DNA of 55,303 nt, taken from the UHGV virus genome UHGV-0114783; one strand, written 5' to 3'. Positions 1 through 49,245 of the stretch are shown here, one piece after another. Below the pieces are notes generated by a model, which worked only from the letters and a program-made list of their open reading frames with translations, was not told where the DNA came from and made no database searches. Position numbers and translations under genes: made by a program. Position 1 is the first letter of the stretch. The number at the start of each line of letters is the position of its first letter. Source of the stretch: a virus.

Positions 1-38
1 TTGCAAAAACCGTGCCCTTAAATATTGAATCTCTATTC

Positions 39-25389: not shown

Positions 25390-25409
25390 TGCATATCTGT
25401 ACCTTATGC
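25390..25409. repeat. Left flanking repeat TGCATatCTGTACCttATGC (candidate att site of nested element)
   Basis: Matches 38309..38328 at 16 of 20 positions with identical CTGTACC core. Confidence 0.4.
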
Positions 25410-25594
25410 AACTAATATCTATTAATCAGTGCGTTATCGTTCGGAATCATACGGCGTTACTGGCCTGAACCATAAAAATGACACTCCGAACATGTGCGGA
25501 TTTATTCGCCGGATTTCGCTTTGATTCGGTACATGAGGGACTAGAAAGAGAATCATGCGCCGTTTGCATTACATGGTAGCCAGAGAGGTGTTGA

Positions 25595-26824
25595 ATGATT
25601 GTTAGGCCACTAACTAGCGTCGAAGTGAAAAGCGCGAAGGCACAGGGCAAGGATTTCAGTTTGCACGATGGTTTCGGTTTGTTGCTTTACATCACAAGCC
25701 GGGGCGGTAAGTCATGGCGTTTTCGGTATGTACACCCGGTAACGAAGAAGAGACAAACCTATACCATTGGAAGATACCCGGAGTTTACTTTGTCCGAAGC
25801 GAGGGAGGAACGTTCGAAACTGCGCCGTATGGTAGCGCGGGGGATAGATCCGAACGAAGTCAAAAAAGATACCAGGAATGAACAGCGTAAAATGTACGCG
25901 CAGTCATTTCAGGCCGTTGCCGATGAATGGCTAAAAATCAAGATTAAAGAAGGTGCGAGAAGCAACACGCTTGAATCGCACAATGTGACGTTGAAGCATC
26001 TTTCCACGATTTTTAGGCATACCACAGTACATAAAATAAACGCAGCCGATACTATTCAGGCTTTTAAACCTTTCAGGGAAAGGCCATCAACGCTTACGAA
26101 AATGGTTATTACCATCAACGCCATAATGGATTATGCGGTAAATATTGGGGTTATTGAGCACAACCCACTATCGAAAATTGGTAAAGCATTCCCGGCTGAA
26201 AAAAACGAACCAAGAGCGACTTTACAGAAAGAGCGGTTGCCAGAATTTTTAAGCGCATGGAACGAGTTGAGCTTATGGGAGCCATCAAAGCTGGCATTAT
26301 TATTTCAGATCATTACGATGGTCCGACCTTCGGAAGCTGGCGGCGCTCTCTGGAATGAGATTGATTTTGATAATTCAATCTGGCAAATCCCTGCAAGCCG
26401 GATGAAAGGAAAGCGCCCCCACGTAGTCCCATTATCGAGCCAGGCTATAAACGTGCTTAAAGAGGCCGAAAAGTGGAAGCGCTGCGATTATGTTTTCCCC
26501 TCATGGCGAAAAGAAAATAAGCCGATCTCACGATGTGCGACTCAGGCCGGAATACACAAAACGTCGTTTAAAGGAATGATTGTTCCTCATGGGTTCAGGG
26601 CGTTGGCATCTACAGTTTTAAATGACGAGGGGTTCAACCCTGATGTGATTGAGGCTGCACTCGCTCACAAAAGCGCCGATGCGATTCGAAATGTTTATAA
26701 CCGTAGCGACTATCTGGAAAAACGCCGGGTTTTAATGCAATGGTGGGGGGACTTTATCGAGGCCGCAGAGCGTGGAGAGATACTGGAGACCAGCGGCGAT
26801 AAGGGCTTAAGGCTGGTTGTGTAG
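25595..26824 (+). CDS. int: Tyrosine integrase (P4-type) of the nested element
   Basis: 409-aa ORF, ATG with GAGAGG upstream; N-terminal KDFSLHDGFGLLLYITSRGGKSWRFRY and C-terminal HGFRALAST / AHK....R.VYNR motifs. Confidence 0.85.
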   Translation: MIVRPLTSVEVKSAKAQGKDFSLHDGFGLLLYITSRGGKSWRFRYVHPVTKKRQTYTIGRYPEFTLSEAREERSKLRRMVARGIDPNEVKKDTRNEQRKMYAQSFQAVADEWLKIKIKEGARSNTLESHNVTLKHLSTIFRHTTVHKINAADTIQAFKPFRERPSTLTKMVITINAIMDYAVNIGVIEHNPLSKIGKAFPAEKNEPRATLQKERLPEFLSAWNELSLWEPSKLALLFQIITMVRPSEAGGALWNEIDFDNSIWQIPASRMKGKRPHVVPLSSQAINVLKEAEKWKRCDYVFPSWRKENKPISRCATQAGIHKTSFKGMIVPHGFRALASTVLNDEGFNPDVIEAALAHKSADAIRNVYNRSDYLEKRRVLMQWWGDFIEAAERGEILETSGDKGLRLVV

Positions 26825-26966
26825 GGCATATCAATTTTTGGATAATTATGATTTCAAACGGGAATAGCTGGCTTTAAGCCAGCTTTTTTTATGCCCAAAG
26901 CTAACCGGAATGCGTTTTTTTTATTCAAATCATATATAATCATATCGAATATATACGGAGGTTTTT

Positions 26967-27179
26967 ATGTCTATAAGTGGCGGTGATATTCTGCTAAAAG
27001 GTGAAGTGAAAGCGCGTTTACGTTATCGCTCAGACTCGTCATTCTACGAGTTTCTAAAAGACGAGAAAAACGGCTTTCCAATGCCTTTTAAAGTCGGTGG
27101 GCGTAACTGCTGGTATGAAGATGAAGTAGATGCCTGGATAAGTAAACAAAGCGAGAAGCGCGGGATCTGCACATCATGA
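26967..27179 (+). CDS. AlpA-like small regulator/excisionase (putative)
   Basis: 70-aa ORF directly after the integrase gene. Confidence 0.55.
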   Translation: MSISGGDILLKGEVKARLRYRSDSSFYEFLKDEKNGFPMPFKVGGRNCWYEDEVDAWISKQSEKRGICTS

Positions 27180-27318
27180 ATGTTTGCAGATTTGGGAAAG
27201 AGGGCTTGCTAACGGCTATCCGGGCAAGCCCTTTTTATTGTCAGTGGTGGGGATCTGTAACTTACGGCCACCAGCGCCGGTAATCACCTTCTGGCTGGTG
27301 GCTTCACTGGCATGGCTA

Positions 27319-27678
27319 TTACGCTGCCGCATCATCTGAATTGAATTCAATGTGAATTCGGTCATAAGGCAGCACGATTTTTTCGCCGTCTTTGTCCAGA
27401 ACGCCGCCGTTAAGCAGTGACTGAACATCGTTATAAACACCGCGAAAATCACGGTTAACAATGCGTGATAGTTCGCGGATTGATACGGCTTGCGCTCCCT
27501 CCATCGCTTTGATGATCTGCCAGCGGTTAGGGGCAAGCATAGTTTTAGCCAGTTGTTCTACAGTGGGAAAAATCAGTTCGGAACCGATGAAATCCCCGTT
27601 CATTGCGCGGGAGGCGTCGGACATTGTCACCCGGAAAGCATCATCAACGGTCATTACTCTGACGGTCAGCACTCGCAT
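27319..27678 (-). CDS. HTH-containing protein of unknown function (second gene of a two-gene module)
   Basis: 119-aa ORF with HTH-like segment VSIRELSRIVNRDFRGVYNDVQSLL; 4-bp gap from the upstream gene. Confidence 0.45.
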   Translation of the reverse strand: MRVLTVRVMTVDDAFRVTMSDASRAMNGDFIGSELIFPTVEQLAKTMLAPNRWQIIKAMEGAQAVSIRELSRIVNRDFRGVYNDVQSLLNGGVLDKDGEKIVLPYDRIHIEFNSDDAAA

Positions 27679-27682
27679 GGTA

Positions 27683-27964
27683 TTACCTCCTCAACAGGTT
27701 TATGTCAGCCTGAAAGCTGGCGATCAGGTTCTCAATGGTGGTGAATGTCACCGGATATTCCCGATCATGGATGTGTTTGTGGTCGCCTTTGCCACGTTCG
27801 TTGTCGTAACGCATGACGCACTCGCCATCTACGATGTAGGCCAGACTGTACTTGTATTGGTGCTGGCTACCTAAAATTGCCGGGTCTACTTCCAGAATGC
27901 GGATCGAGGCGAAAGCGTTATCAGCTATCTGGATACGGCGGTTCATCAACTCAACAGCGGGCAT
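27683..27964 (-). CDS. Small protein of unknown function (first gene of a two-gene module)
   Basis: 93-aa ORF tightly coupled to the downstream HTH gene. Confidence 0.45.
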   Translation of the reverse strand: MPAVELMNRRIQIADNAFASIRILEVDPAILGSQHQYKYSLAYIVDGECVMRYDNERGKGDHKHIHDREYPVTFTTIENLIASFQADINLLRR

Positions 27965-28204
27965 TGGCTTATCTCCTTGTTGATGTAAATAATAACATCA
28001 CAAACGAATGATGTAAATGATTACATCATTGCGGGTAAGTTACCGATGGCATGAACGGTTCGCTGCTGGTGGCTCTCGATCTCCTGAAATCTCAGGAGAT
28101 TGCCGGGCATGATTTTAATCGGCGGACTTTTCCGCCGATTGAATACGGGCAGTTCGCTCCCTGCGTGTCGGTTTTGTTTGTGGATTATTCGCGTTTCGTT
28201 TCTG

Positions 28205-28310
28205 GTGAATTCGCATTCGCAATTTTTCCGAGAAGCCTTATCCGGCCTGCTTTGAGCAGTGTTCTCTCTTTGCGAATTCGCAATTCCATTCGCACTTTGA
28301 TTCGCAGTTT
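28205..28310. promoter_or_regulatory. Cluster of ATTCGCA heptamer repeats including the palindrome TGCGAATTCGCA
   Basis: Six or more copies of ATTCGCA within about 100 bp of non-coding-looking sequence. Confidence 0.4.
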
Positions 28311-28436
28311 TCAAATGTTCCCATTCCGGGGGCATGGACGATTCGACAGGTGTTACAAACGTTGGTGGTGAAATATCTTCTTGCGCTGGCGGGCAGGGTG
28401 TGGTTATGATTATTTCGCACCTCACAAAACGGGTGC

Positions 28437-28655
28437 CGGGTTTAGCAGCCTGAACGTTCTAGCGGGTAGCCGCTGATTTCCGTATAGCGGTATTTTTACG
28501 CCCGAAAACCAACCACACCCCCGATTTATGGCGGGGCGTGGTGGGGAGGCTTAACGCCTGCTGGTTTCCTAGAACGCCAGTCTGCTAACCCCGCCACGTC
28601 TCGCCACCCATGTTTAGCAGCATCTGGCGAGACTCCTTCAATATGTTCTAGGAGC
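28437..28655 (+). ncRNA. Candidate structured regulatory RNA region with mutually complementary repeats (P4 immunity-like arrangement)
   Basis: TTTAGCAGC...CGTTCTAG at 28441..28462 and again at 28613..28650, complementary block CTAGAACG...TCTGCTAA at 28569..28589, GC hairpin near 28512..28545. Confidence 0.35.
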
Positions 28656-28751
28656 CGCTAAAAATGGCTAGATCCGCACATCCAAAATTCACCTGGCGCT
28701 TTCTCGCGCTTAATCGCCACGACAAAAAAGCCAAACCTTGCCGTTTGTCCG

Positions 28752-29723
28752 TTGAGGCTGCGACCGAACGCGAAGCCCGCCGCATCCTTGCGCCGCACTT
28801 TATTTTGTCTCTGGCCGCACGTCTGCCAGTGCCGGAGGTGCGCCGTGTTTAACCTCCAGACTCTGACAGCCAAAGCCCGCGAGCTGCGCGGCAATGTCGT
28901 TAAAGCGGCGAGCACAAAGGGCAGTCGCACCATGACCCCTGTTTATGACCGCGACGAGCAGCGCAAGCTACGTGAGCGCATCCAGCAGACGCAACCGGAT
29001 TGGGTATTGCTCTGGTGGGATATTGCGACCGTAACCGGCTGGCGTACCAGCGATGTTTGCAACCTGCGCTATTCCTGCGTCAATTGGGAAACGGGGCAGG
29101 CGACAATTATCGTTGCCAAGCAAACCAAAGCCGCCGAAGCGCGGGCAACCCGCAAAGGTATTGAAATTGTGCGCCAGCAGCGCAAGGACGCCGCACGGCT
29201 CGCCGCTGACCATATCGCCTACATGAAGTGGGATAGTATCGGCTGTGATGAACTGGCCGCCGATATGAACGACGAAGAACAGGCGATTGTGTTCGGGCTG
29301 GTGGCAAAGGCTGACGTCAAGCACGACACCAAACAGTTACCGCCCGGCATCATCAAGCGGCTGCGTGACCGGCAGGATCGGAATCTGGTAGAGGACGACC
29401 TGGTATTTTCCCGCTCTCAAATCGAAAGTAACCGTTGTCAACGTCTGGAAGGTAGCGTGACCCGCCAAACCATCTGGCGCAAACTTCATGGCGTCATGGC
29501 GTGGTTTACCCGCTTCATTAACGCTAAATTGCGCCTGAGCGCCTATTCAAGCCGAAAAATAGCAGCCTTTAATCTTATGTCCGCAGGTGGCGAACAGGGC
29601 TTATTGGTGGCGTCTGAAATGCTGGGCCATAGCAACCCGGCGATAACTCGCACTTACCTTCAATTAGGCAGCAAAGCCGCCGCTATCCAGTCCCGTTTAG
29701 CAATGGAGGCCGGAAATGCGTAA
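28752..29723 (+). CDS. Divergent tyrosine-recombinase-like protein (start uncertain)
   Basis: ORF track 323 aa; C-terminal region with TGWRTSD ... LGHSNPAITRTYLQL resembling recombinase boxes; likely real start at an internal GTG/ATG (around 28846 to 28932). Confidence 0.45.
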   Translation: MRLRPNAKPAASLRRTLFCLWPHVCQCRRCAVFNLQTLTAKARELRGNVVKAASTKGSRTMTPVYDRDEQRKLRERIQQTQPDWVLLWWDIATVTGWRTSDVCNLRYSCVNWETGQATIIVAKQTKAAEARATRKGIEIVRQQRKDAARLAADHIAYMKWDSIGCDELAADMNDEEQAIVFGLVAKADVKHDTKQLPPGIIKRLRDRQDRNLVEDDLVFSRSQIESNRCQRLEGSVTRQTIWRKLHGVMAWFTRFINAKLRLSAYSSRKIAAFNLMSAGGEQGLLVASEMLGHSNPAITRTYLQLGSKAAAIQSRLAMEAGNA

Positions 29724-29895
29724 AACCTTCCAGATTGACGGATACGCTGTTAACAGGCGCGGGCATACGGTAGGGATTCACTACACCATGACCAGCACTA
29801 GCCCAGAAACAGCTAAATCTACTGCGCAACTACTGGCGCAGAAGGGCAGCTATAAACACGTTCGCATTACCCGCATTCGTGAGGTGGCAGCATGA
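29716..29895 (+). CDS. Small hypothetical protein (59 aa)
   Basis: Hand-translated ORF with GGAGG ahead of the ATG; overlaps neighbours by a few bases; not in ORF track. Confidence 0.4.
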   Translation: MRKTFQIDGYAVNRRGHTVGIHYTMTSTSPETAKSTAQLLAQKGSYKHVRITRIREVAA

Positions 29896-30155
29896 ACATA
29901 AATACCATCTACCGCCACCCGGCAGAGCTGGAAGCCGAAGCGATGCTATCTCGTAAAGAAGCATACCCGGATGATTTTACGCTGGCAGACCGAACAGCAG
30001 AACGCATGACCCGCGCCCGCAATGGGCTGGCTCACGTTATGACCGATTTAGCCACTCAACTAGACGATGAACAGGCCGCTATCGTGTATTGCTGGCTGAG
30101 TAAAGTCCTGACGATTATCGATATAGCCAGAATTGATGCGGAGGCCAGCGCATGA
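29892..30155 (+). CDS. Hypothetical protein
   Basis: 87-aa ORF, translationally coupled (ATGA overlap). Confidence 0.45.
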   Translation: MNINTIYRHPAELEAEAMLSRKEAYPDDFTLADRTAERMTRARNGLAHVMTDLATQLDDEQAAIVYCWLSKVLTIIDIARIDAEASA

Positions 30156-30373
30156 GCCAGTTACAACTGATTGATGCCACCTGTCAGATTGAACAGGCAC
30201 AGGCTGTTTTATCCATGTGGCTGGAGAGCACCACCAAAGACACTAGCCCCGACCTTCCGCGTCTTATCGGTTCAATCCTCACTTTGCTGCATGGCGTCCC
30301 GGAGGCAATGGAAGAAGCCGAAAGCAAGCTGGCTGACTATGTGATGCGTGAATATCGGGAGGGCAAGTCATGA
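30152..30373 (+). CDS. Hypothetical protein
   Basis: 73-aa ORF, coupled. Confidence 0.45.
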   Translation: MSQLQLIDATCQIEQAQAVLSMWLESTTKDTSPDLPRLIGSILTLLHGVPEAMEEAESKLADYVMREYREGKS

Positions 30374-30960
30374 GCTATCACGCAGAGGCAACGCCGCACG
30401 GCGTCAATATCATGACCAGCAATGATGCCGGGATATATGAGCATGTAGCCATTATAACCTATGAGAGCGCTGTAAGCCGTCTGGATGCGGGAGAGTACGA
30501 CGATACGCCAGATATCGGCTACGCCATTCATTTTGCCGTTGCTGATGGCGGGGCGCGTGGCTGGTTCGACTTTACTGCGCAGCATAACGTCACTATGTGG
30601 CGCTGGCTGATTGCTGCGACGTTCGTTTCTGAGATGAAGCGCGAAAACGGCACAACCTCCGTCACGGAGGCTGACGGCACAACATCGCAGGTGGCGATTT
30701 ACTCCAATGGTAATGCGGGCATGGTGATTTACCCGTTTGCTGAACGGCTGGCGATGGCGAACAACATCGAGGGCGCAATGATTGAGCGATACGGCGTCGA
30801 ACAGGGTACGGAAAACGCCATTGTGTTCTACCGCGCCATGCTGGACACGGAGCGCGGCGAGTTGACCCCGTTCGGGCGTCAGACGCTGGCAGAGCTACAC
30901 GATGGATTCATTGCCGATCTGAATGAAAACGGCTGGCCTGAAATGCCGCTGGCGCACTGA
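30370..30960 (+). CDS. Hypothetical protein
   Basis: 196-aa ORF immediately upstream of the primase gene. Confidence 0.45.
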   Translation: MSYHAEATPHGVNIMTSNDAGIYEHVAIITYESAVSRLDAGEYDDTPDIGYAIHFAVADGGARGWFDFTAQHNVTMWRWLIAATFVSEMKRENGTTSVTEADGTTSQVAIYSNGNAGMVIYPFAERLAMANNIEGAMIERYGVEQGTENAIVFYRAMLDTERGELTPFGRQTLAELHDGFIADLNENGWPEMPLAH

Positions 30961-30973
30961 GGGAGGTACACGA

Positions 30974-33754
30974 ATGCGTAATATCGACCTTATCCGCGAA
31001 GTGACCACCGCCGCAGCAGGGCGCTGGCCTTATGTGCTGGCTGGATTGTCTATCGACGTGCCTGATTCATCGCGCCGCCATGCCCCCTGCCCTGCATGTG
31101 GCGGTACGGATCGCTTCCGGTTCGATGATAACGGGCGCGGCAGCTTTATCTGCAACCAGTGCGGCGCGGGCGACGGGCTGGATTTAATCAAGCGGGTTAA
31201 CAACTGCGACACCACGGAGGCGGCGCACCTTGCCGCTGATGTGCTGGGTATTGATTACCGGGCAGCAGAAACCGACCCGACAGCAGCCAGCCAGAGGCGG
31301 GAGCAAATGGAGTCTGAGCGCCAGCAGCGCGAGCAGGAGCGCCAGAAACAGGCAGCAGAGGACGCAGAGCAGCGAAGGGCTACGTTTGCCAGCCTGTATG
31401 CCGGAATGCGCCAGAGCGTCACACGGGGCGAATCTGAATATCTGATGGCTAAGGGGCTGGACGGGTTCACTTTCCCGCTATTGCCTGATGGTTCAGTCCT
31501 GCTTGAGCTGGTGGATGAGTCCGGCGCAGTGGCAGCCGCACAGACCATCACCCCACAGGGAGAAAAGCGCCTTCTGACAGGTTCAGCAAAGCGCGGGGCA
31601 TATCACGCCGTAAACGCGCCAGAATCGCCGCAGAGCGTTTTAATTGCCGAGGGGCTGGCAACGGCGCTATCCGTTCACCAGATGCACCCCGAAGCGCTGG
31701 CGGTGGTCGCAGTGGACGCCGGAAACCTGCTTTCGGTCGCACAGCTTATGCGCCAAAAGCACCCTAACGCGCGGATCATCATTGCCGCAGACAATGACCA
31801 GAGCGCCGAAAGTGACAGAAGAGGAGGAGTGAAAATTAACACAGGTAAGGAGTGCGCGGAGAAAGCCGCAAAAGCCGTTGCTGGCTGGGCCTCGCTGCCA
31901 CCCGTGGACTACAAAGCGGACTGGAACGATTACCACCAACAATATGGACTGGAAGCCGCTACAGCAGCATTTAACGCCTCAATGTACCAACCGGAGGGTA
32001 AGAAAGTGGGTGTGACACTGGCAGCAATCGACGGCGGCAAGAAAAGCCCTGGTATCGACGACGACCTTAAACCGCGAGTAGAGAGCCGTTCGGATGGCAT
32101 TCACTGGATCACCCCGAAAGTGGACAAAGACACAGGGGAAATTATCAATACCGAGGCGTGGCTATGCTCTCCGCTGGAGATTGCTGGTGCAGGGAGTGAT
32201 AACGCCAGACAGCGCTTTCTGATCCTGCGTTGGGACGTTCCCGGCAATCGGGGGCAAGTTACCCGTGCGCTTCCTTGGGAGGACATTGGCGACCGCGAGG
32301 GATGGCGAACTCTGAAAAACGGCGGTGTCAGTGTGACGACCAAACCATCGTTGCGGGCAATTCTGGCCGACTGGCTACAGCGAACCGGTAGCGGCAAGGA
32401 GTGGCAGATCAGCCACACCACAGGCTGGCACAGCGGGGCGTACATCATGCCGGATGGTGATGTTATTGGTGATCCAGAGATACCGCTTTTATTCAGTGGC
32501 CGCAGTGCGGCGGCTGGTGGCTATACCGTCAGTGGAACGCCGGAAAGCTGGCGTGATTCGGTGGCGCGTCTTGCGTTGGGCAACCCGTCAATGATGCTGG
32601 GTGTTGCTGCTGCGCTGTCTGCACCGCTGATCGGGCTTGTTGGCGCTGACGGTTTCGGTGTTCACCTTTTCGAACAGTCCAGCGCAGGGAAGACGACGAC
32701 CGCCAACATTGCCAGCAGCTTATACGGTGAACCGGATGCCCTGCGCCTCACCTGGTACGGTACTGCGCTGGGTATCGCCAACGAAGCGGAAGCGCATAAC
32801 GACAGCCTGTTACCGCTGGACGAAGTGGGGCAGGGCAGTAGCGCCAAAGACGTTGCCACGTCGGCTTACACGCTGTTTAACGGTGCCGGAAAGTTACAGG
32901 GGGCGAAGGAGGGCGGCAACCGTGAGTTAAAGCGCTGGCGTACCGTGGCGATCAGTACCGGGGAAATGGACATTGAAACGTTTCTTTCTGCTGGTGGGCT
33001 GAAAGTTAAGGCCGGGCAACTGGTGCGACTGCTTAATTTACCGATGGAGAAATCAGTAACGCACCATGAGTACCAGAACGGGAAGCAACACGCCGACGCA
33101 CTCAAAGAGGCTTACCAGACGAACCACGGAGCCGCAGGCCGTGAATGGATTAAATGGCTTGCAGGCCACCAGCAGGAGGCAAAACAAGCTGTCAGAGCGG
33201 CGCAAGAGCGCTGGCGCAGTCTTATCCCCGCTGATTATGGCGAACAGGTTCATCGTGTAGGCGAGCGGTTCGCCATTCTGGAGGCGGCGCTGGTGCTTGG
33301 GATGCCTGTCACTGGCTGGGGGGAGCAGGAAAGCCGGGACGCCATCCAGCATGGCTTTAACGCCTGGGTGAAAGAGTTTGGCACGGGGAACCGTGAGCAT
33401 AAGCAGATCATCGAGCAGGCAGAGGCGTTTCTTAATGCATACGGACTGAGCCGATTTGCACCTTACCCTTATGACCCGGCTGACATGCCGATTCGGGATT
33501 TGGCCGGGTACCGTCAGAAAGGGGCGCATGATGCTGATCCGATAGTGTTCTACACGTTCCCGGCAGCATTCGAAGGTGAGATTGCGAAGGGATTCAACGC
33601 GAAACAGTTTGCCCGTGTGCTGGCCGGGGCTGGGGTGCTGAAACCGCCAGCCAGCGGAAGGGGGTATCAGCGTAAATCCCCGCGAATTGATGGACGCCAG
33701 ATAAACGTTTATGTGCTCCAGCTACGACCCGACGAGATAGAGGGTGAAGAATAA
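30974..33754 (+). CDS. Primase-helicase (P4 alpha-like: zinc ribbon, TOPRIM, Walker-A NTPase)
   Basis: ORF track 30923..33754 trimmed to the ATG at 30974; CPACGG...CNQCG zinc ribbon, TOPRIM-like IAEGLATA...IIIAADND, Walker A GADGFGVHLFEQSSAGKTT. Confidence 0.85.
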   Translation: MRNIDLIREVTTAAAGRWPYVLAGLSIDVPDSSRRHAPCPACGGTDRFRFDDNGRGSFICNQCGAGDGLDLIKRVNNCDTTEAAHLAADVLGIDYRAAETDPTAASQRREQMESERQQREQERQKQAAEDAEQRRATFASLYAGMRQSVTRGESEYLMAKGLDGFTFPLLPDGSVLLELVDESGAVAAAQTITPQGEKRLLTGSAKRGAYHAVNAPESPQSVLIAEGLATALSVHQMHPEALAVVAVDAGNLLSVAQLMRQKHPNARIIIAADNDQSAESDRRGGVKINTGKECAEKAAKAVAGWASLPPVDYKADWNDYHQQYGLEAATAAFNASMYQPEGKKVGVTLAAIDGGKKSPGIDDDLKPRVESRSDGIHWITPKVDKDTGEIINTEAWLCSPLEIAGAGSDNARQRFLILRWDVPGNRGQVTRALPWEDIGDREGWRTLKNGGVSVTTKPSLRAILADWLQRTGSGKEWQISHTTGWHSGAYIMPDGDVIGDPEIPLLFSGRSAAAGGYTVSGTPESWRDSVARLALGNPSMMLGVAAALSAPLIGLVGADGFGVHLFEQSSAGKTTTANIASSLYGEPDALRLTWYGTALGIANEAEAHNDSLLPLDEVGQGSSAKDVATSAYTLFNGAGKLQGAKEGGNRELKRWRTVAISTGEMDIETFLSAGGLKVKAGQLVRLLNLPMEKSVTHHEYQNGKQHADALKEAYQTNHGAAGREWIKWLAGHQQEAKQAVRAAQERWRSLIPADYGEQVHRVGERFAILEAALVLGMPVTGWGEQESRDAIQHGFNAWVKEFGTGNREHKQIIEQAEAFLNAYGLSRFAPYPYDPADMPIRDLAGYRQKGAHDADPIVFYTFPAAFEGEIAKGFNAKQFARVLAGAGVLKPPASGRGYQRKSPRIDGRQINVYVLQLRPDEIEGEE

Positions 33755-33778
33755 AAACACACATACGAGATGTTTTTT

Positions 33779-34073
33779 TGTTGGTTCAGTTGGTTCAGTA
33801 ACTATTTAATTAATATAAGTGTGTGTATTTAATGCATTTACATGCTTGTAAGTGAACCAACACCGAACCAACAAACGCCCATTTTGAACCAACAAATGCC
33901 GCTATTGAACCAACGCCCTTTTCTGGCTGGCCTGTAAATCTTTCCCACTGAACCAACACGAAAATAGCGTTTGTTGGTTCAAAACGGGGCTTTGTTGGTT
34001 CACTCCTAAAGAAATAATCCTTATAAAACAACAATCTTTACAAATTGAACCAACTGAACCAACTGAACCAACA
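33779..34073. repeat. Iteron array, about a dozen GAACCAAC/GTTGGTTC octamers in both orientations (candidate origin of the nested element)
   Basis: Direct reading: TTGGTTCAG x2, GAACCAAC x5, GTTGGTTC x2, then GAACCAACTGAACCAACTGAACCAAC, immediately downstream of the primase gene. Confidence 0.7.
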
Positions 34074-34355
34074 TGTTTTTGCTTATCTATAGAGTTTTTT
34101 CGGAGAGTAATTACTAATTTGGAGGGGCGTCGCCTAAGCGAAAGTATGCGGAAACGGCAACTTTGCGGAGCGGAAAAGAAAAAGCCCGCGCTGGAGAGGC
34201 GAGGGCTTTTGTTAACCATGTTTATGCAATCACACAACGGTGGATCACCGTCATAGTATCACGTCGATTTATCATTTCAATATGCGCAATGATATTTACT
34301 AACATTGCAATTTATGCAATGATCAGAATTTAAACAACGCAAAAGGTTATGAACA

Positions 34356-34919
34356 ATGAAACAGATAACCAATGTTAATCTGGAAAGTGATAACTCTGGT
34401 GGTACCGTCGAGGTGACTTACTCCGATGATACGTTCGAAAGGCTGACCTGCTCGCTTCCTGTGGCTCTCGTCATTGCGAATCTTGCAACGACGCTTAAGC
34501 AGGAACGTGCAACACGCATTGCAACTGGCGACCGCCTGCGTCGGATGTACACCCGCGATAGTGACATGATTACTCGCAGTGGCAGCGGCGCTTCTACGAC
34601 CTCCACCGCGCCAACGTCAATGGACGCTGAATTTATGCGCCTGGTACGCGCGGTAGCACCAAAGTATGACAACGCCCTTCCTGATACCGATCCTCGCCTT
34701 GTTGCGCTCGACGTGCTGCGTTACGCACCCGCTGAGGCATTCAGTGCGGTACATCCGACCCCGCTATCAGAGATTCAGCTTGATCAGGCTATCGACGTTC
34801 TGGAGCAGGTTGGCGACTACATGCGAGTTAACAACGTTTCACCGAAGATTCTCTCCACAGGCGACGCCATTCGCAGCATTAACACCGATAATGCCAGTTT
34901 CTGGCATCGCACGAAGTAA
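34356..34919 (+). CDS. Hypothetical protein
   Basis: 187-aa ORF after the iteron region. Confidence 0.45.
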   Translation: MKQITNVNLESDNSGGTVEVTYSDDTFERLTCSLPVALVIANLATTLKQERATRIATGDRLRRMYTRDSDMITRSGSGASTTSTAPTSMDAEFMRLVRAVAPKYDNALPDTDPRLVALDVLRYAPAEAFSAVHPTPLSEIQLDQAIDVLEQVGDYMRVNNVSPKILSTGDAIRSINTDNASFWHRTK

Positions 34920-34925
34920 GGAGCA

Positions 34926-35120
34926 ATGAGCATGGCTATTTATGACCCGAAATTAGCAGCAGGAAACCCGCAAAGCGCCGGGCGTAAACTCTTTGGCCGT
35001 GAGCATGCCGAGCAGTTACGTATGCGTAACAACTTCAACAACGAATGCCGCAATCTGGAAAAAGTCAACGAAGCGAATGCAAAGTTCTGGAGTGAACAGG
35101 ATGAAAAAGCCAAACGTTAA
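34926..35120 (+). CDS. Hypothetical protein
   Basis: 64-aa ORF. Confidence 0.35.
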   Translation: MSMAIYDPKLAAGNPQSAGRKLFGREHAEQLRMRNNFNNECRNLEKVNEANAKFWSEQDEKAKR

Positions 35121-35268
35121 ACCGGTATTACTTTCTGGCGACCAGTTCGCCGCAATCTGCAAGATCCAGGAGCGCGAACGCCAGCGCTCCGATATTGGCG
35201 TTGCGCCTTCTGTCCATCAAATTGCCCGTGGGCTGGTGGCGAAAGCGCTGGCATCAATTCAGGAATAA
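35101..35268 (+). CDS. Hypothetical protein (55 aa)
   Basis: ORF track 34993..35268 trimmed to the ATG at 35101. Confidence 0.3.
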   Translation: MKKPNVKPVLLSGDQFAAICKIQERERQRSDIGVAPSVHQIARGLVAKALASIQE

Positions 35269-35273
35269 CGACT

Positions 35274-36341
35274 ATGTCATATAACTGGATGCGCCATTTC
35301 GAGCTACAGCTCATCGATGAGAATGGCAAAGGAATTAGCCTTAGTGATTTCAAAGTTACCTTTGATATAGAGCGTAACGATAACAAATGGCCAGCTGTTG
35401 CGACGGTCAAGATCTACAACCTTTCACCAACTACTCAGAACCGTATTATGCAACGTGAGTTTGCCAAAATTGTGTTGATAGCGGGGTATGATGGTCGTGC
35501 GCAGGATGTAAGGGCAAGTGATGTGGGGATTGCACGTGAAATATCAGCAAGCGAAGTGGGCCAGGCTAACGGCGCAAACTACGGAGTCATTTTCAGCGGT
35601 GATATCCGCTTCACTGTGACCGGAAAAGATAACCCTGTCGATTCATGGGTACAGGTGCAGGCTTGTGACTCTGTGGAGGCGTTTACCAGCGCATTTATCA
35701 ACACCACTATCAGCAAAGGCTACACCACAGAAGATATTTATGTTGAGCTTATGAAAAGGCTGGAACCTTACGGCATTTCTCGCGGTATTGTTCCTGAATT
35801 CCCGGCAACGGTATTTCCTCGCGGTCGAGCCCTCTTTGGCTATGTCCATAACTATCTCGATGAAGTGGCCGCGCAGTGCAAAGCCACTTGGCAATTCAAC
35901 TATGGAAAAGTCGATATTGTTCCCAGAGACAAGGCCACTCATGAAGCTGTGGTTCTCAACGCTAATACCGGGCTTATCGGTATGCCTCAGCAGACCATCG
36001 GTGCGGGTGTGAATGTCAAATGCCTGATTAACTCACGGATTCACCTGAACGGGCTTATCCAACTGGATCAGGCTTCGGTATATCGTAGCGCCTTATCTGC
36101 GGATCAAATTGCCCAAGCTGGTGGGCCAATTTCGGTGGAAAGCCAAAACGGAAACCTTGTCACTACTGGATTAACGCAGAGTCCGGCGAGCATTGCTACC
36201 GATGGTATCTATAAGGTTCGGTATATCAGTTACACGGGCGACACGCGCGGTCAAGCGTGGTATATGGATCTGGCGTGTGAGGCTCGCGGGAATTCTGATT
36301 TATTTTCAAGTTCATTTATGAATAAGCAGAGTGAAGAATGA
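35274..36341 (+). CDS. Baseplate hub-like protein, diverged second copy
   Basis: 355-aa ORF colinear with 47449..48513 (shared WMRHFELQL, RFTVTGKDN, AVVLNANTGLIGMPQQT, YTGDTRGQAWYMDL blocks). Confidence 0.65.
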   Translation: MSYNWMRHFELQLIDENGKGISLSDFKVTFDIERNDNKWPAVATVKIYNLSPTTQNRIMQREFAKIVLIAGYDGRAQDVRASDVGIAREISASEVGQANGANYGVIFSGDIRFTVTGKDNPVDSWVQVQACDSVEAFTSAFINTTISKGYTTEDIYVELMKRLEPYGISRGIVPEFPATVFPRGRALFGYVHNYLDEVAAQCKATWQFNYGKVDIVPRDKATHEAVVLNANTGLIGMPQQTIGAGVNVKCLINSRIHLNGLIQLDQASVYRSALSADQIAQAGGPISVESQNGNLVTTGLTQSPASIATDGIYKVRYISYTGDTRGQAWYMDLACEARGNSDLFSSSFMNKQSEE

Positions 36342-36682
36342 AGAAGATTATTTTACTGATTGGTTTATTGGGCGCATCTGGAAGTCATGCTGCGCAGGTT
36401 ATTACCATGCAGTGCGGAAACTTTCGCTTTGAGATGATAGAAAACTCGATGGCGAGAATTAATGGTGAGTATGTAACATCTCAGAAAATTACAGAGTTCG
36501 GACAGAACGGGGCAAAAGTAGAAATGACGCTTATGCCTGCCAGCGATGGGAATCTGTATGGGTTTGAATACATCCATCCTGACGGTAGCAAAAAGCGCTG
36601 GCTGAATGTTGAGCTTATCCGCACCAATATGAATCAGGCGCGGATCATTGGCTCGTTTGATTGTAAGCGCGTGAAGGGGTAA
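36338..36682 (+). CDS. Small secreted protein with conserved QCG.F and DCK...KG motifs (second copy)
   Basis: 114-aa ORF with signal-peptide-like N-terminus, same position between hub and spike genes as the phage copy. Confidence 0.5.
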   Translation: MKKIILLIGLLGASGSHAAQVITMQCGNFRFEMIENSMARINGEYVTSQKITEFGQNGAKVEMTLMPASDGNLYGFEYIHPDGSKKRWLNVELIRTNMNQARIIGSFDCKRVKG

Positions 36683-36690
36683 GGGGAATC

Positions 36691-37353
36691 ATGCCATTCA
36701 TTCGACCCGCAAATGAGCAGGATGTAACACAGCTTGTTCAGGACAATGCTAAAGCATCTGTAACCAATGCGTTACCTGGCATTATTCGTTCGTTCGATCC
36801 CGAAACTGTCACCTGCGATGTTGATATAGCCATTACGGCAAGAATGACGAAGGCTGGCACAATGGGTGAAGATTTCCAGTATGAGTCCGTCCGCTATCCG
36901 ATTCTTAACGATTTGCCTGTGGTTTTTCCGCGCGGGGGCGGAGTTACGCTTACTTTCCCGGTTAAAGATGGTGATGAATGCCTCATCGTATTCTCTTCGC
37001 GTTCGATTGATTTCTGGTGGCAGAACGGCGGTGTGCAGGAGCGAGCTGATGGGCGTATTTTAGATCTGTCTGATGCGTTCGTTATTCCTGGCCCCCAATC
37101 ACAGGTAAAGAAGATATCCAATATCAGTACCAACGCTGCGCAGCTGCGTACAGATGATGGAGCGGCATTTGTAGAGGTGTCCGCTGGTGGAGCCATTACT
37201 ATTACCAGCTCTCAAATCACCCTTAACGGGCCCGTGCAGGTAAACGGAACGATCACTTCCACTGGCGACCAAACGGCCAACGGTATCAGCCAGATTAACC
37301 ATACCCACGGCGGCGTACAATCAGGCGGCAGCAACACAGGAAAACCACAATGA
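36691..37353 (+). CDS. Baseplate central spike protein (gpV-like), diverged second copy
   Basis: 220-aa ORF colinear with 49246..49986 (shared FPRGGG.TLTFPVK.GDECL, DLSDAF, TDDGAAFVEV, HGGVQ.GG..TG.PQ end). Confidence 0.65.
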   Translation: MPFIRPANEQDVTQLVQDNAKASVTNALPGIIRSFDPETVTCDVDIAITARMTKAGTMGEDFQYESVRYPILNDLPVVFPRGGGVTLTFPVKDGDECLIVFSSRSIDFWWQNGGVQERADGRILDLSDAFVIPGPQSQVKKISNISTNAAQLRTDDGAAFVEVSAGGAITITSSQITLNGPVQVNGTITSTGDQTANGISQINHTHGGVQSGGSNTGKPQ

Positions 37354-37529
37354 GCAATATTGAAAAACTGAAACCAGAAGAAAGCGGAGCCAGCCAGAAT
37401 GGAAAGGTTCGTACCTGGCTGGATGATATCAACGGGCAGCCGGAACCAGATGGTATTGGCAGCTTCGGTGAGAGTGCGATCTGCGAAGAATCACGCACAG
37501 CGGAAACCATGCGAAATAACGTAGGGTGA
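37350..37529 (+). CDS. Small hypothetical protein (59 aa)
   Basis: Hand-translated ORF starting at the ATGA overlap with the preceding gene; not in ORF track. Confidence 0.3.
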   Translation: MSNIEKLKPEESGASQNGKVRTWLDDINGQPEPDGIGSFGESAICEESRTAETMRNNVG

Positions 37530-37619
37530 CGGTCAGATGACGTGATCTGTAACTTTAAGTAGCGGTGCAGGGGCAGAACTCAGCACGCTACTTTTATTTT
37601 CTTTGTCAAAAGGTGAACA

Positions 37620-38093
37620 ATGGCGGCATTACCAACAATGGCTAAGGTTATGATTATTCAATCATTAGCTTGCTACGAACCCCCTTCCAGAATCGTTGAG
37701 CTTGTAAAACAAGATTTTGGCATCGTCGTTACCCGGCAGCAGATATCGGCCTACAACCCTGAAAATACAATGGCAAAAAATCTTAGCCAAAAATGGGTAG
37801 AACTCTTTAATCACACTCGCGCCCGCTTCCAGAGTGAAATATCCGAGATCCCTATCGCTAACAAAGCGTACCGGCTGCGTATGCTCGATCGCATGGCTAA
37901 CCGTGCAGAGGCAATCAAGAATTACGCATTAACAGCGCAGCTTATTGAACAGGCCGCGAAAGAGTGCGGGGACGCTTACACCAACAAATTAAAGGTTGAA
38001 ACAACGGGTAAAGATGGTGGTCCGATCAGAACGGAAACAACGAACTTAACCGCCGAAGAAGCCGGGGAGGCATACCGCAAATTTATGGGATAA
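37620..38093 (+). CDS. Orphan terminase small subunit homolog (no adjacent TerL)
   Basis: 157-aa ORF colinear with the phage TerS at 19944..20417, roughly two-thirds identical by eye, nearly identical C-terminal third. Confidence 0.65.
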   Translation: MAALPTMAKVMIIQSLACYEPPSRIVELVKQDFGIVVTRQQISAYNPENTMAKNLSQKWVELFNHTRARFQSEISEIPIANKAYRLRMLDRMANRAEAIKNYALTAQLIEQAAKECGDAYTNKLKVETTGKDGGPIRTETTNLTAEEAGEAYRKFMG

Positions 38094-38308
38094 CCACCAG
38101 CGCCGTGACACGTCACACGCAAAAATAGCACCGCCCATTAATGGGCTGGTGGCACAGCTTGCATATTGAAATTCCCTGTAAATCTTACAGATCTGGTATT
38201 GAGTAACTTACCCCATTCAGCGCCACACATCACAGAGCAGCCTATGGACTACACACAAAATCAGGCTGAAAATAAATCCTTATATTTCAGTTGATTAAAT
38301 AATAGCCT

Positions 38309-38328
38309 TGCATTCCTGTACCGGATGC
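38309..38328. repeat. Right flanking repeat TGCATtcCTGTACCggATGC (candidate att site of nested element)
   Basis: Matches 25390..25409; the ATG within it is the start codon of the next head gene. Confidence 0.4.
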
Positions 38329-38807
38329 CTGTTGGCATTGCCGGGGCTATCTCTCGCCCGCAGGACTTAACCGTCGAACCGGTGATCCTTAAATCCGCTA
38401 ACGCCTTCGCTGCCTATGGTCTGGCTGGCAAATATGACGCTGACGGCTTTTTCGTGCCGCTGGCGGACGGTGACACCGCCGACAAGGTGAAGGGGATCTA
38501 CGTTCGTCCGTATCCGACCACATCGCAGCCAGACATGGTTCGCCAGGTGGGGACGGATAAGAACTTCCCGGGTGACGCCATGAAGCGTGGCTACATGACC
38601 GTTAATCTCGGTTCTGATTTTGATGCCAGCACCATCAAAAAAGGCGACCCGGTATACGTTGTCGTCTCCACTGATGAATCCATAAAAGTGCCGCTGGGCG
38701 GCTTCATGTCCACGTCCGTCAGTGGCAAAAACGTGGCGCTGACCAACGCCGAATTCACAGGGGCCGGTGACGCTAACGGCAATGTAGAAATCTCCTGGAA
38801 GATTTAA
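38325..38807 (+). CDS. Head structural protein (putative decoration/accessory protein)
   Basis: 160-aa ORF directly upstream of the major capsid gene. Confidence 0.5.
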   Translation: MPVGIAGAISRPQDLTVEPVILKSANAFAAYGLAGKYDADGFFVPLADGDTADKVKGIYVRPYPTTSQPDMVRQVGTDKNFPGDAMKRGYMTVNLGSDFDASTIKKGDPVYVVVSTDESIKVPLGGFMSTSVSGKNVALTNAEFTGAGDANGNVEISWKI

Positions 38808-46518: not shown

Positions 46519-47144
46519 TGGATATTTTATCAGCGATTTTTCGCCAGCAATCACGGCGAATTGGCCTGCTGATCCCCAGCGTGGTCGTTTCCGAAAAGCA
46601 TTCTGATGCGCTCGAAATTACTGAGCACCCGGTGGAGAAGCCAACAACGAATAGCGCCTCGGGTTTCATCGCCGATCATGCGTATAAGCGCCCCAGTGAA
46701 GTCACAATGGAATGCGGCTTCGCTGGGGGCGGTTCGTTGCTGGACTTCATTGATACATCTTCAATCGGTCTTAGCGCTGGGCTTAGCCCAAAGGAGACAT
46801 ACCAAAAGCTGCTGGATATGCAGCTTGAGCGCGTACCGTTCGATGTGGTTACCGGGAAGAGGGTGTACACCAATATGCTGGTGCGAGCCATTGAGGTGAC
46901 GACCGATAAAACCAGCGAGAACGTGCTGAACTGCACGCTTACCCTGCGTGAAGTCATCATAACGCATACAAAAAATGTCACCGTTGCTGATAAATCCGAT
47001 ATGCAGGACGGGGTTAGTACATCTGCGGTGCAGAATTCCGGGACTAAATCCACCACCCCAGTAAATGAATCGGTAATTAAGTCAACAGGGTGGTTTGATG
47101 GACTAAAAGGAACCAGTCTTGGTAACTCTATAGGTATCCAATGA
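46518..47144 (+). CDS. Baseplate/tail protein (putative)
   Basis: 208-aa ORF after the tape measure gene. Confidence 0.4.
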   Translation: MDILSAIFRQQSRRIGLLIPSVVVSEKHSDALEITEHPVEKPTTNSASGFIADHAYKRPSEVTMECGFAGGGSLLDFIDTSSIGLSAGLSPKETYQKLLDMQLERVPFDVVTGKRVYTNMLVRAIEVTTDKTSENVLNCTLTLREVIITHTKNVTVADKSDMQDGVSTSAVQNSGTKSTTPVNESVIKSTGWFDGLKGTSLGNSIGIQ

Positions 47145-47446
47145 ATGTAACTGAAATCCCTTTATCGCCGGATAACCAGCTATTTCGCATTCAGTTAGCA
47201 GAGACAACATACACGCTGAGAGTCATTTGGCGTGATTCTGCTGGCTGGATTCTGGATGTACAAGATAGCAGTGGCGAACCGCTTCTTTCTGGCGTGCCGC
47301 TGGTAACCGGTGTAAATCTTCTTGAGCAATATCCTCAACTAGGTATTAACGGGGCGCTGCTCGTTGGCTGCGATGTAGGCGCACCGGACGAGCCCACCAA
47401 AACCAACCTCGGCACATACAGCCACCTCATTTTCGTGCAGGAGTAG
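47141..47446 (+). CDS. Baseplate/tail protein (putative)
   Basis: 101-aa ORF, coupled. Confidence 0.4.
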   Translation: MNVTEIPLSPDNQLFRIQLAETTYTLRVIWRDSAGWILDVQDSSGEPLLSGVPLVTGVNLLEQYPQLGINGALLVGCDVGAPDEPTKTNLGTYSHLIFVQE

Positions 47447-47448
47447 AA

Positions 47449-48513: not shown

Positions 48514-48523
48514 GGTACGGGAC

Positions 48524-48862
48524 GTGAAACTCGTAATTTTTACCATTGCAGCATTATTTTCTTTCCAGGCTATTGCTGATTCTCAGTGTGGTGATTTCAA
48601 CATCCATTGGGCTGATGATGGTTTCGCTCGCGTAAACGGAGCTAAACCTGAATCGCAAAAAGTGACATTTCTTAAAAATGACGGTGATTATAACAACGTC
48701 AAAATTGAATGGCGCTTAGCGACCAATCAACCAGGGCGATGGGTAGGAATGGAGTTTATTGGCCGTAATGGTAAAGCAATCCTGAATGCTCAGTGGCTGC
48801 AAGCAAATATGGATGCACCACGTCAGTATGCAACTTATGACTGTGTAAAAATAAAAGGATAA
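48524..48862 (+). CDS. Small secreted protein with QCG.F and DC...KG motifs (phage copy)
   Basis: ORF track 48482..48862 trimmed to the GTG at 48524 (GAGG upstream); signal-peptide-like N-terminus. Confidence 0.45.
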   Translation: MKLVIFTIAALFSFQAIADSQCGDFNIHWADDGFARVNGAKPESQKVTFLKNDGDYNNVKIEWRLATNQPGRWVGMEFIGRNGKAILNAQWLQANMDAPRQYATYDCVKIKG

Positions 48863-48867
48863 AATTA

Positions 48868-49188: not shown

Positions 49189-49207
49189 TTTCATTTCAAG
49201 TATGAAT

Positions 49208-49236: not shown

Positions 49237-49245
49237 GGGGTTTTT

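What the first reader, a model, noticed from the sequence alone, without database searches (positions are those of the whole stretch)
33779..34073. About a dozen GAACCAAC iterons in both orientations downstream of the primase-helicase
The octamer recurs about twelve times in roughly 300 bp of AT-rich non-coding sequence, ending with three tandem copies. Position and form match the iteron-bearing origin regions of P4-type replicons, implying the insert is an autonomous replicon once excised.
Basis: partly seen in the sequence, partly recalled or inferred. Interest (0 to 1): 0.6.

Follow-up and report, generated by a model that had tools for sequence, protein, structure and literature searches.

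The report
Replication origin of a phage satellite
The twelve GAACCAAC repeats are very probably the replication origin of a small parasitic element (a phage satellite) sitting inside a prophage, where the element's own primase-helicase binds to start DNA copying; this kind of origin is already known, so it is a clear but ordinary example.

Summary
There are 12 exact GAACCAAC copies at 33780-34072, against about 1.6 expected in the whole window. They form a strict layout: << | AT-rich | >>>>> | << | AT-rich | >>>, starting 26 nt after the stop codon of a 943-aa primase-helicase.

The region is best read as a PICI-type origin. The protein carries a P4-alpha-like primase domain and a DUF927 helicase homologous to the SaPIbov Rep initiator-helicase. 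Its C-terminal domain is predicted to fold as a winged helix.

In 36 related loci the layout is kept while the octamer changes by lineage, giving about 10 classes. These changes track substitutions confined to residues 846-931 of the protein, so that domain probably reads the iterons.

The 12.9-kb element is a helper-embedded PICI. It lies in the cement/minor-capsid gene of an Omnitron-like prophage, with att core CTGTACC.

The P4 analogy holds for position and form, because P4 crr also follows alpha. It fails for family membership: the helicase is different, the ori-binding domain is SaPI-Rep-like, and there is one iteron cluster rather than ori plus crr.

Circular 12-16 kb records carrying the same origin type fit an episomal state. 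Replication and binding remain untested. Verdict: a new member of a known kind, of modest interest.

The parts
30923..33754 (+). Pri-Rep gene (943-aa ORF). Close homologues begin at MRNIDLI, so the real start is probably 30974. Domains: Zn-ribbon primase, Toprim, DUF927 helicase, C-terminal domain.
   Evidence: Pfam gives Zn_Ribbon_Prim 51-86, Toprim_3 239-342 and DUF927 391-670. Residues 24-357 are 35% identical to P4 alpha. Residues 442-839 match PDB 8tch, the SaPIbov Rep, at E 1.5e-15.
33350..33751 (+). C-terminal domain of Pri-Rep (residues 810-943): predicted winged-helix iteron-recognition domain. Specificity positions lie at 846-931, especially the wing motif YQRKSPRI (915-922).
33779..34073 (.). 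Whole origin: 12 iterons in two modules, bracketed by a perfect 21-nt inverted repeat.
   Evidence: Iteron columns are 88-100% identical against 47-54% for spacers among diverged orthologues.
33780..33796 (-). Left tandem pair of iterons (9-bp period).
   Evidence: Present at stop+21..30 in nearly all related loci.
33797..33853 (.). AT-rich spacer 1 (77% AT), the least stable duplex of the region and the candidate melting site. Its length is conserved but its sequence is not.
   Evidence: The window 33803-33833 has dG -29.7 kcal/mol per 31 bp, and only 3 of 12,890 windows in the insert are as unstable.
33854..33957 (+). Five direct iterons at spacings 11, 21, 21 and 43 bp, which are near whole helical turns.
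33973..34001 (-). Two inverted iterons, 21 bp apart.
34002..34046 (.). AT-rich spacer 2 (78% AT). It contains a conserved ~28-nt element, CCTTATAAAACAACAATCTTTACAAATT, that always abuts the tandem iterons.
   Evidence: The same element occurs in inverted orientation on the left side in a second architecture variant (L006, L007, L018).
34047..34072 (+). Right tandem triplet of iterons (9-bp period).
25390..25403 (+). attL of the 12.9-kb satellite (tgcatatCTGTACC), inside codons 3-7 of the prophage cement/minor-capsid gene.
   Evidence: The uninterrupted site is seen in Citrobacter phage Omnitron, 99.9% identical up to this point.
38310..38323 (+). attR (tgcattcCTGTACC). The rest of the interrupted phage gene follows at 38325-38807 (XM1_gp53/Phage_cement).
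25595..26824 (+). Satellite integrase, co-oriented with pri and with the interrupted late gene.
   Evidence: Pfam Arm-DNA-bind_3, Phage_int_M and Phage_integrase.
26967..27179 (+). AlpA-family regulator.
   Evidence: Phage_AlpA scores 20.5 bits, just under the 21-bit cut-off. The RefSeq orthologue is annotated as AlpA family.

Best explanation
The array is the vegetative replication origin of a phage-inducible chromosomal island (PICI) embedded in a prophage late gene.

Proposed mechanism. Pri-Rep, encoded immediately upstream, binds each TGAACCAACA iteron through its C-terminal winged-helix domain, with the beta-hairpin wing (YQRKSPRI) setting specificity. The oppositely oriented iteron sets on either side of the two AT-rich spacers position Pri-Rep oligomers so that the spacers melt. 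The most likely melting site is 33803-33833. The DUF927 (SaPI-Rep/Cch-like) helicase rings then self-load without DnaA or a separate loader, and the fused Zn-ribbon/Toprim domain primes synthesis. After AlpA-controlled induction and Int-mediated excision at CTGTACC, the 12.9-kb circle would replicate on its own. Before excision it is also copied passively with the helper.

Shown here: the array, its geometry, its conservation, the iteron/CTD covariation, and the protein homologies. Inferred: binding, melting, self-loading and autonomy.
For: (1) Twelve exact copies occur against about 1.6 expected in the whole window, starting 26 nt after the pri-rep stop codon.

(2) Among five diverged orthologous origins, iteron columns are 88-100% identical and spacers 47-54%.

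(3) In 36 loci from GTDB genomes, nearly every Pri-Rep homologue with a matching C-terminus has 6-12 copies of one octamer just downstream, but the octamer differs by lineage: GAACCAAC, GAGACAAC, GGGACAAC, GAACCACG, TAACCCGT, TAACCCAC, GGGATAAG, GTAGGGAT, TGTGACCG and GAACCG-type. The spacing scheme is retained across most of these classes.

(4) Of 267 protein columns invariant in 17 GAACCAAC-class proteins, only 5 differ in all GAGACAAC-class proteins: P849G, K918R, S919V, P920del, I922E. For GAACCACG and the two TAACCC classes, all class-fixed differences fall in 846-931. The gap between same-class and different-class identity peaks at residues 840-943.

(5) L006 and L007 are 84% identical overall and about 94% identical in the helicase, with very similar origin flanks. 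Yet every iteron is switched from GAACCAAC to GAGACAAC, and the wing changes from RKSPRI to GRV-RE.

(7) Published work shows that SaPI Reps bind iterons through a C-terminal winged helix. Their origins lie immediately 3' of rep, with iterons in opposite orientation on both sides of an AT-rich region (PMC9371898). E. coli PICIs have the same organisation, and the EcCICFT073 pri-ori segment drives plasmid replication (PMC6092414). The EcCICFT073 origin is at the syntenic position (int-HTH-Icd-DUF4222-pri-ori) and has the same form with other iterons.

(8) There is no DnaA box, IHF consensus or GATC in the origin, which fits a self-loading initiator.

(9) Sister elements with this origin type are deposited as 12.2-kb and 16.0-kb circular 'plasmids'.
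Against: There is no experimental evidence for this element. Binding, melting and replication are inferred by homology and covariation. The sequences compared are related by descent, so the covariation counts are not independent events, although the L006/L007 pair and the repeated class switches argue against a purely phylogenetic artefact. The CTD fold is a prediction; Foldseek support is weak (best E 0.03) and a sequence profile found no solved relative of the CTD. As a helper-embedded element it could rely mostly on passive replication within the helper composite (PMC10111431). AT-rich spacer 1 is not conserved in sequence, so which spacer melts is unknown.
Confidence: 0.85

Rival explanations
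1. It is a P4-type replicon element. The array would be the equivalent of P4 crr (or ori), served by a P4-alpha orthologue, with replication following the P4 ori+crr scheme.
For: P4 crr lies directly after alpha, behind a terminator. It consists of octamers (GGTGAACA) in both orientations, including 9-bp tandems. The N-terminal primase domain is 35% identical to alpha (E 3e-46). The element also has a C4/isrK-type immunity RNA, and its orthologue has an Icd-like gene.
Against: The helicase is DUF927, not D5_N/DUF5906/Pox_D5, and shows no BLASTP similarity to alpha beyond residue 357. The CTD matches the SaPIbov Rep and Cch. Only one iteron cluster exists in the 12.9-kb insert. The iteron sequence differs from P4's. 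The int-alpA-...-pri-ori-late-genes layout is that of Gram-negative PICIs (PMC10111431).
Confidence: 0.07
2. The repeats are an operator or regulatory array for a transcription factor (AlpA, the downstream 187-aa XRE-annotated protein, or a helper protein) that controls the satellite's late zone, and not an origin.
For: The array lies between the replication gene and the late zone. Arrays of short repeats in both orientations can be operators. RefSeq annotates an XRE-family gene 280 bp downstream in the orthologue.
Against: The same array follows pri-rep in loci with entirely different downstream genes (L004, L005, L047, L048). The iteron class covaries with the Pri-Rep C-terminus. The downstream gene has its own distinct repeats at 34270-34323. 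Only one promoter-like site was found in the scanned stretch, at 34253-34280 outside the array, and no terminator-like site.
Confidence: 0.03
3. The repeats are a packaging (pac/TerS-binding) site or a partition site of the satellite.
For: The satellite carries a DUF2280 gene (37620-38093). I recall this family as small-terminase-like, but did not test that here. Iterated short repeats occur at pac and parS sites.
Against: The DUF2280 gene is 3.5 kb away and is absent from sister elements that keep the array (L005, L047). cf-PICI relatives with a different TerS/TerL keep the same array after pri. The covariation is with Pri-Rep. No partition genes are present.
Confidence: 0.03

Closest known systems
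Gram-negative PICI pri-rep-ori module (EcCICFT073; Fillol-Salom et al. 2018, PMC6092414)
   Same: The origin lies immediately 3' of pri-rep. Iteron sets flank AT-rich DNA, with 9-bp tandem pairs at both ends in opposite orientation. The synteny int - alpA/HTH - Icd-like - DUF4222 - pri - ori is shared.
   Different: EcCICFT073 Pri-Rep is a 584-aa D5_N/DUF5906/Pox_D5 protein without the Zn-ribbon/Toprim domain, and its iterons are TCTACC-type. The origin here is a double module of 12 iterons with two AT-rich spacers.
SaPI Rep initiator-helicases and SaPI origins (SaPIbov Rep, PDB 8tch; Qiao et al. 2022, PMC9371898)
   Different: SaPI iterons are penta- or hexanucleotides, whereas these are 8-10 nt. 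The host is Gram-positive. The primase is separate or of another type, while here a P4-alpha-type primase is fused. CTD sequence similarity is undetectable.
Satellite phage P4 alpha / crr / ori
   Same: The Zn-ribbon+Toprim primase domain is homologous (35% identity). Octamer iterons in both orientations, with 9-bp tandems, lie directly after the gene (crr). The primase-helicase-origin-binding protein is multifunctional. A C4/isrK immunity RNA is present.
   Different: P4 has an SF3 D5-type helicase, the iteron TGTTCACC, and two cis sites (ori and crr) 4.5 kb apart. Here there is a DUF927 helicase and a single compound site.
Helper-embedded PICIs (HE-PICI; Tommasini, Mageeney & Williams 2023, PMC10111431)
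   Same: The satellite is integrated inside, and co-oriented with, a prophage late gene. The zones are the same: int/alpA, then a Bro/immunity-RNA zone, then a replication zone, then a zone of captured late genes.
   Different: The target here is the cement/minor-capsid gene of an Omnitron/SEN34-like myovirus prophage. The main text of the paper does not contain the terms I searched for this target (cement, decoration, DUF2184, DUF2213, baseplate, Myovir). The captured late genes here are baseplate, plug and spike genes plus DUF2280.

Membership tests
PICI-type replicon (pri-rep + ori) | Origin located immediately 3' of the pri/rep gene | tested here: met
   The first iteron starts 26 nt after the stop codon. 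The same holds in the related loci whose Pri-Rep C-terminus matches (first iteron 19-47 nt after the stop).
PICI-type replicon (pri-rep + ori) | [quoted passage not shown] | tested here: met
   The layout is << | 77% AT | >>>>> and << | 78% AT | >>>. The definition comes from PMC6092414 and PMC9371898.
PICI-type replicon (pri-rep + ori) | Initiator is a helicase homologous to SaPI Rep, with a C-terminal winged-helix domain | tested here: met
PICI-type replicon (pri-rep + ori) | Cognate specificity between Rep and its iterons | tested here: met
   Tested in silico only. About 10 iteron classes covary with CTD residues 846-931, and the L006/L007 pair shows a concerted switch. Physical binding was not tested.
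PICI-type replicon (pri-rep + ori) | The pri-ori segment drives autonomous replication | not testable with these tools
   Indirect evidence only: circular 12.2-kb and 16.0-kb records of sister elements with this origin type.
Gram-negative PICI | int, alpA and pri all present and transcribed in one direction; element size 10-20 kb | tested here: met
   int is at 25595-26824, alpA at 26967-27179 (Pfam 20.5 bits against a 21-bit cut-off; RefSeq orthologue annotated as AlpA), and pri at 30923-33754, all on the + strand. The insert is 12.9 kb.
Helper-embedded PICI | [quoted passage not shown] | tested here: met
   Phage Omnitron carries the uninterrupted gene. The attL/attR core is CTGTACC. The gene is XM1_gp53/Phage_cement.
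Helper-embedded PICI | Integrase belongs to the 11capE integrase clade | not tested
   No 11capE integrase sequence was compared.
P4-type replicon | Alpha-type Zn-ribbon + Toprim primase domain | tested here: met
   BLASTP gives 35% identity and E 3e-46 over residues 24-357, with the same Pfam domains.
P4-type replicon | SF3 D5-like helicase (D5_N / DUF5906 / Pox_D5) and alpha-type C-terminal ori-binding domain | tested here: not met
   The helicase is DUF927 and shows no similarity to alpha beyond residue 357. The CTD's best structural matches are SaPIbov Rep, TcpK and Cch.
P4-type replicon | Two cis sites (ori and crr) carrying the same type-I iteron, several kb apart | tested here: not met
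   There is a single cluster. No other exact or clustered 1-mismatch copies occur in 25404-38323. The P4 layout is shown.
DnaA-dependent iteron plasmids (pSC101/F/P1 RepA type) | DnaA boxes and IHF sites next to the iterons; a small Rep without helicase | tested here: not met
   There is no DnaA box (up to 1 mismatch), IHF consensus or GATC in 33700-34120. The initiator is a 943-aa primase-helicase.

The most novel reading that the evidence does not exclude
On one fixed origin scaffold this DUF927 Pri-Rep family has repeatedly re-coded its iteron (at least 10 octamer classes) together with a few residues of the winged-helix wing. This would be a natural and probably portable DNA-recognition code, whose biological role may be to keep co-resident satellites replicatively isolated from one another. 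Because the element is embedded in its helper, its double-module origin might also fire before satellite excision and act as an extra origin for the helper-satellite composite.
Probability: 0.3. Interest if true: 0.5.

Novelty: new member of a known kind. Interest (0 to 1): 0.3.

Why it matters
The result pins down the origin and the probable origin-recognition domain of a widespread enterobacterial satellite replicon. The same DUF927 Pri-Rep and origin type appears in helper-embedded, classical and capsid-forming PICIs. The result also predicts which few residues (about 849, 909-922) set iteron specificity, so swap experiments are straightforward. It supports the idea that helper-embedded satellites retain their own replicon. 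It does not reveal a new kind of system.

Tried and rejected
- A first AF2 run on residues 700-943 with a shallow alignment (32 sequences, 72-100% identical) gave pLDDT 49 and was discarded.
- A sequence profile of the CTD against PDB sequences found nothing meaningful (best E 0.43, ribosomal uS9m).
- A full-text search for the octamer returned only unrelated primer matches.
- The Rfam hit MIR5638 over the array (31.6 bits against a gathering score of 500) is a repeat artefact. The OrzO-P hit at 34180-34258 (38.6 bits against 60) is below threshold.
- The repeat finder with a 12-nt seed did not find the att sites because the core is only 7 bp. They came from comparison with phage Omnitron.
- No DnaA, IHF or GATC motifs were found. 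The promoter/terminator scan of 33600-34450 found nothing inside the array: one promoter-like site at 34253-34280 on the minus strand, no more than the shuffles give, and no terminator-like site.
- No tRNA gene lies in the window, so the element is not a tRNA-targeting island.
- Coding potential of the mechanical ORFs 33810-34034(-) and 33902-34237(-) was rejected because no ORF is conserved in the orthologues.

Full report
**Observation**

The octamer GAACCAAC occurs 14 times in the window, against 1.56 expected (maximum 4 in 100 shuffles). Twelve of the copies lie in 33780-34072. None is degenerate, and there is no second cluster in the surrounding 12.9-kb insert.

The copies extend to about TGAACCAACA and are arranged as follows:
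- two tandem minus-strand copies (9-bp period);
- a 57-bp spacer of 77% AT;
- five plus-strand copies at 11, 21, 21 and 43 bp;
- two minus-strand copies 21 bp apart;
- a 45-bp spacer of 78% AT;
- three tandem plus-strand copies (9-bp period).

A perfect 21-nt inverted repeat closes the two ends. The stretch is unannotated in a 97%-identical E. coli record and has no ORF conserved in diverged copies.

**Context**

The array starts 26 nt after the stop codon of a 943-aa ORF (30923-33754) with Zn_Ribbon_Prim, Toprim_3 and DUF927 domains.

The surrounding 12.9 kb is an insertion in a prophage. Citrobacter phage Omnitron is 99.9% identical up to 25403 and then continues directly with the sequence found at 38324 in the window. 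This gives attL tgcatatCTGTACC and attR tgcattcCTGTACC, and places the insert in codons 3-7 of a cement/minor-capsid gene (XM1_gp53, Phage_cement).

The insert carries these features, all on one strand:
- an integrase;
- an AlpA-family gene;
- a C4/isrK-type immunity RNA (28417-28611);
- an Icd-like gene;
- the primase-helicase and the array;
- captured baseplate, plug and spike genes;
- a DUF2280 gene.

This is the 'helper-embedded PICI' configuration described by Tommasini, Mageeney and Williams in 2023 (PMC10111431).

**Conservation**

Diverged copies keep every iteron and the spacing while the spacers drift. These copies are an E. coli chromosomal island (L005), a Klebsiella capsid-forming PICI (L004) and further copies from Pantoea (L022) and Rahnella (L014). 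Iteron columns are 88-100% identical and spacer columns 47-54%.

The first AT-rich spacer conserves length and composition only. The second contains a ~28-nt element, CCTTATAAAACAACAATCTTTACAAATT, that always abuts the tandem iterons. In a second architecture variant it appears inverted on the left side.

**Covariation with the protein**

A scan of GTDB species genomes returned 36 related loci. In almost all of those that match the C-terminus of Pri-Rep, the 450 nt after the stop codon hold 6-12 copies of one octamer, but the octamer depends on the lineage. The classes are GAACCAAC (19 loci), GAGACAAC, GGGACAAC, GAACCACG, TAACCCGT, TAACCCAC, GGGATAAG, GTAGGGAT, TGTGACCG and a GAACCG type. The spacing scheme (stop +~25, <<, 53-65, > 11 > 21 > 21 > ..., < 21 <, 53, > 9 > 9 >) is retained across most of these classes.

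Protein comparison localises the matching changes:
- The excess of same-class over different-class identity is 0.13-0.17 over most of the helicase and 0.24-0.32 in residues 840-943.
- Of 267 columns invariant in 17 GAACCAAC-class proteins, only five differ in all four GAGACAAC-class proteins: P849G, K918R, S919V, P920del and I922E.
- For the GAACCACG and TAACCC classes, all class-fixed differences lie in 846-931.
- L006 and L007 form a natural swap. The proteins are 84% identical, with 23 differences in residues 400-800 and 38 in 800-943. The origin flanks are very similar. Yet every iteron is GAACCAAC in one and GAGACAAC in the other, and the wing is RKSPRI in one and GRV-RE in the other.

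**What the protein is**

Residues 24-357 are 35% identical to the primase domain of P4 alpha (E 3e-46). There is no similarity beyond that point, and P4 alpha's helicase is D5_N/DUF5906/Pox_D5 rather than DUF927.

Residues 442-839 match PDB 8tch, the initiator-helicase of a SaPIbov island (E 1.5e-15), and more weakly SCCmec Cch.

Published work shows three relevant things. SaPI Reps recognise their iterons with a C-terminal winged helix. Their origins sit immediately after rep, with oppositely oriented iterons on both sides of an AT-rich region. The Reps self-load without ATP or accessory factors (PMC9371898).

E. coli PICIs share that organisation, and the EcCICFT073 pri-ori segment replicates a plasmid (PMC6092414). 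I located that validated origin. It lies at the syntenic position (int-HTH-Icd-DUF4222-pri-ori) and has the same form with TCTACC-type iterons, but it is served by a D5-type Pri-Rep.

**Mechanism proposed**

1. Pri-Rep binds the iterons through the wing of its C-terminal winged helix.
2. The two oppositely oriented sets around each AT-rich spacer position the oligomers.
3. The spacers are the least stable duplex of the region. The window 33803-33833 has -29.7 kcal/mol per 31 bp, matched by only 3 of 12,890 windows in the insert. The window 34006-34036 comes second. Melting there is the inferred next step.
4. The DUF927 helicase self-loads and the fused primase primes.

The absence of DnaA boxes, IHF consensus sites and GATC fits a host-initiator-independent origin.

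Some relatives have only one module, <<< AT > 11 > 21 >. The window's origin therefore looks like two such modules. In one 12.2-kb circular record the two halves are separated by 1.8 kb of cargo.

Binding, melting and autonomy are inferred, not shown.

**Autonomy**

Sister elements with the same origin type are deposited as complete circular 'plasmids'. One is a 12,152-bp E. coli record that is a whole PICI. Another is a 15,995-bp K. pneumoniae record that is a capsid-forming PICI. This fits an episomal, replicating state but is not proof. The HE-PICI paper observed replication of the helper-satellite composite and left the satellite's own contribution open.

**Comparison and verdict**

P4 crr follows alpha and has octamers in both orientations with 9-bp tandems. 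It is also right for the primase domain.

The defining P4 features are not met, namely the D5-type helicase and the two cis sites 4.5 kb apart. The module is instead a member of the PICI/SaPI pri-rep-ori class. I found no paper describing the GAACCAAC iteron or the DUF927-type enterobacterial Pri-Rep origin specifically. Even so, the kind is well known and the embedded context was published in 2023.

I rate the finding as a new member of a known kind, with modest interest. The family-wide iteron/wing covariation is the most useful by-product.

Noticed in passing
window 25404-38323 (attL 25390-25403, attR 38310-38323): The whole insert is a 12.9-kb helper-embedded PICI in codons 3-7 of the cement/minor-capsid gene of an Omnitron/SEN34-like myovirus prophage. 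The att core is only 7 bp (CTGTACC). The main text of the HE-PICI paper does not contain the terms I searched for this target gene (cement, decoration, DUF2184, DUF2213, baseplate, Myovir), so it may be an additional integration site.
   Followed up: partly
window 28417-28611 (+): A C4 antisense RNA (76 bits, above gathering) lies directly after an isrK-like RNA (44.6 bits, below gathering). This is the P4-CI-type immunity RNA arrangement, inside the satellite.
   Followed up: no
window 35274-38093 (satellite) versus about 46500-50000 (helper): The satellite's late zone carries its own baseplate-hub, plug and gpV-type spike genes plus a DUF2280 gene. These parallel the helper's baseplate/spike genes further downstream and look like captured helper late genes.
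   Followed up: no
L003 6983-7103, L045, L046 (E. coli 042, O111:H8 and others): About 540 of 5,426 complete E. coli genomes carry only the right-hand origin module (<<< AT-rich >>>) next to a perC gene. These sit in decayed islands that lack the primase, so they are orphan half-origins of this replicon type.
   Followed up: partly
L047 6540-6650 and 8436-8556 (E. coli plasmid record NZ_CP148430.1, 12,152 bp): A complete PICI is deposited as a circular plasmid. Its two origin modules are separated by 1.8 kb of inserted genes, which recalls the split ori/crr of P4.
   Followed up: partly
window 34015-34046; L006, L007, L018 left spacers: A ~28-nt AT-rich element (AATTTGTAAAGATTGTTGTTTTATAAGG or its complement) is conserved in several iteron classes and always abuts the tandem iterons, on either side of the origin. 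It could be a DNA-unwinding element or a host-factor site.
   Followed up: partly
window 34180-34210 and 34270-34325: A GC-rich hairpin (AAAAGCCCGCGC...GCGAGGGCTTTT) lies after the origin. Two 24-nt direct repeats with TGCAAT palindromes lie upstream of the 187-aa gene at 34356-34919 and are probably that gene's operator. This segment is absent from sister elements.
   Followed up: no
window 28752-29723 (+): A second integrase-like ORF (323 aa, TTG start, partial Phage_integrase match) lies inside the satellite, between the immunity RNA and the replication genes. The EC2001 orthologue annotates it as 'integrase'.
   Followed up: no
L006 and L039 (assembly labelled Chryseobacterium sp. 18061): Two contigs of a Chryseobacterium-labelled assembly encode Enterobacterales-type Pri-Rep genes, 71-73% identical to the window's protein. 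One of them (L006) also has a GAACCAAC origin. The assembly is probably contaminated or mixed.
   Followed up: no
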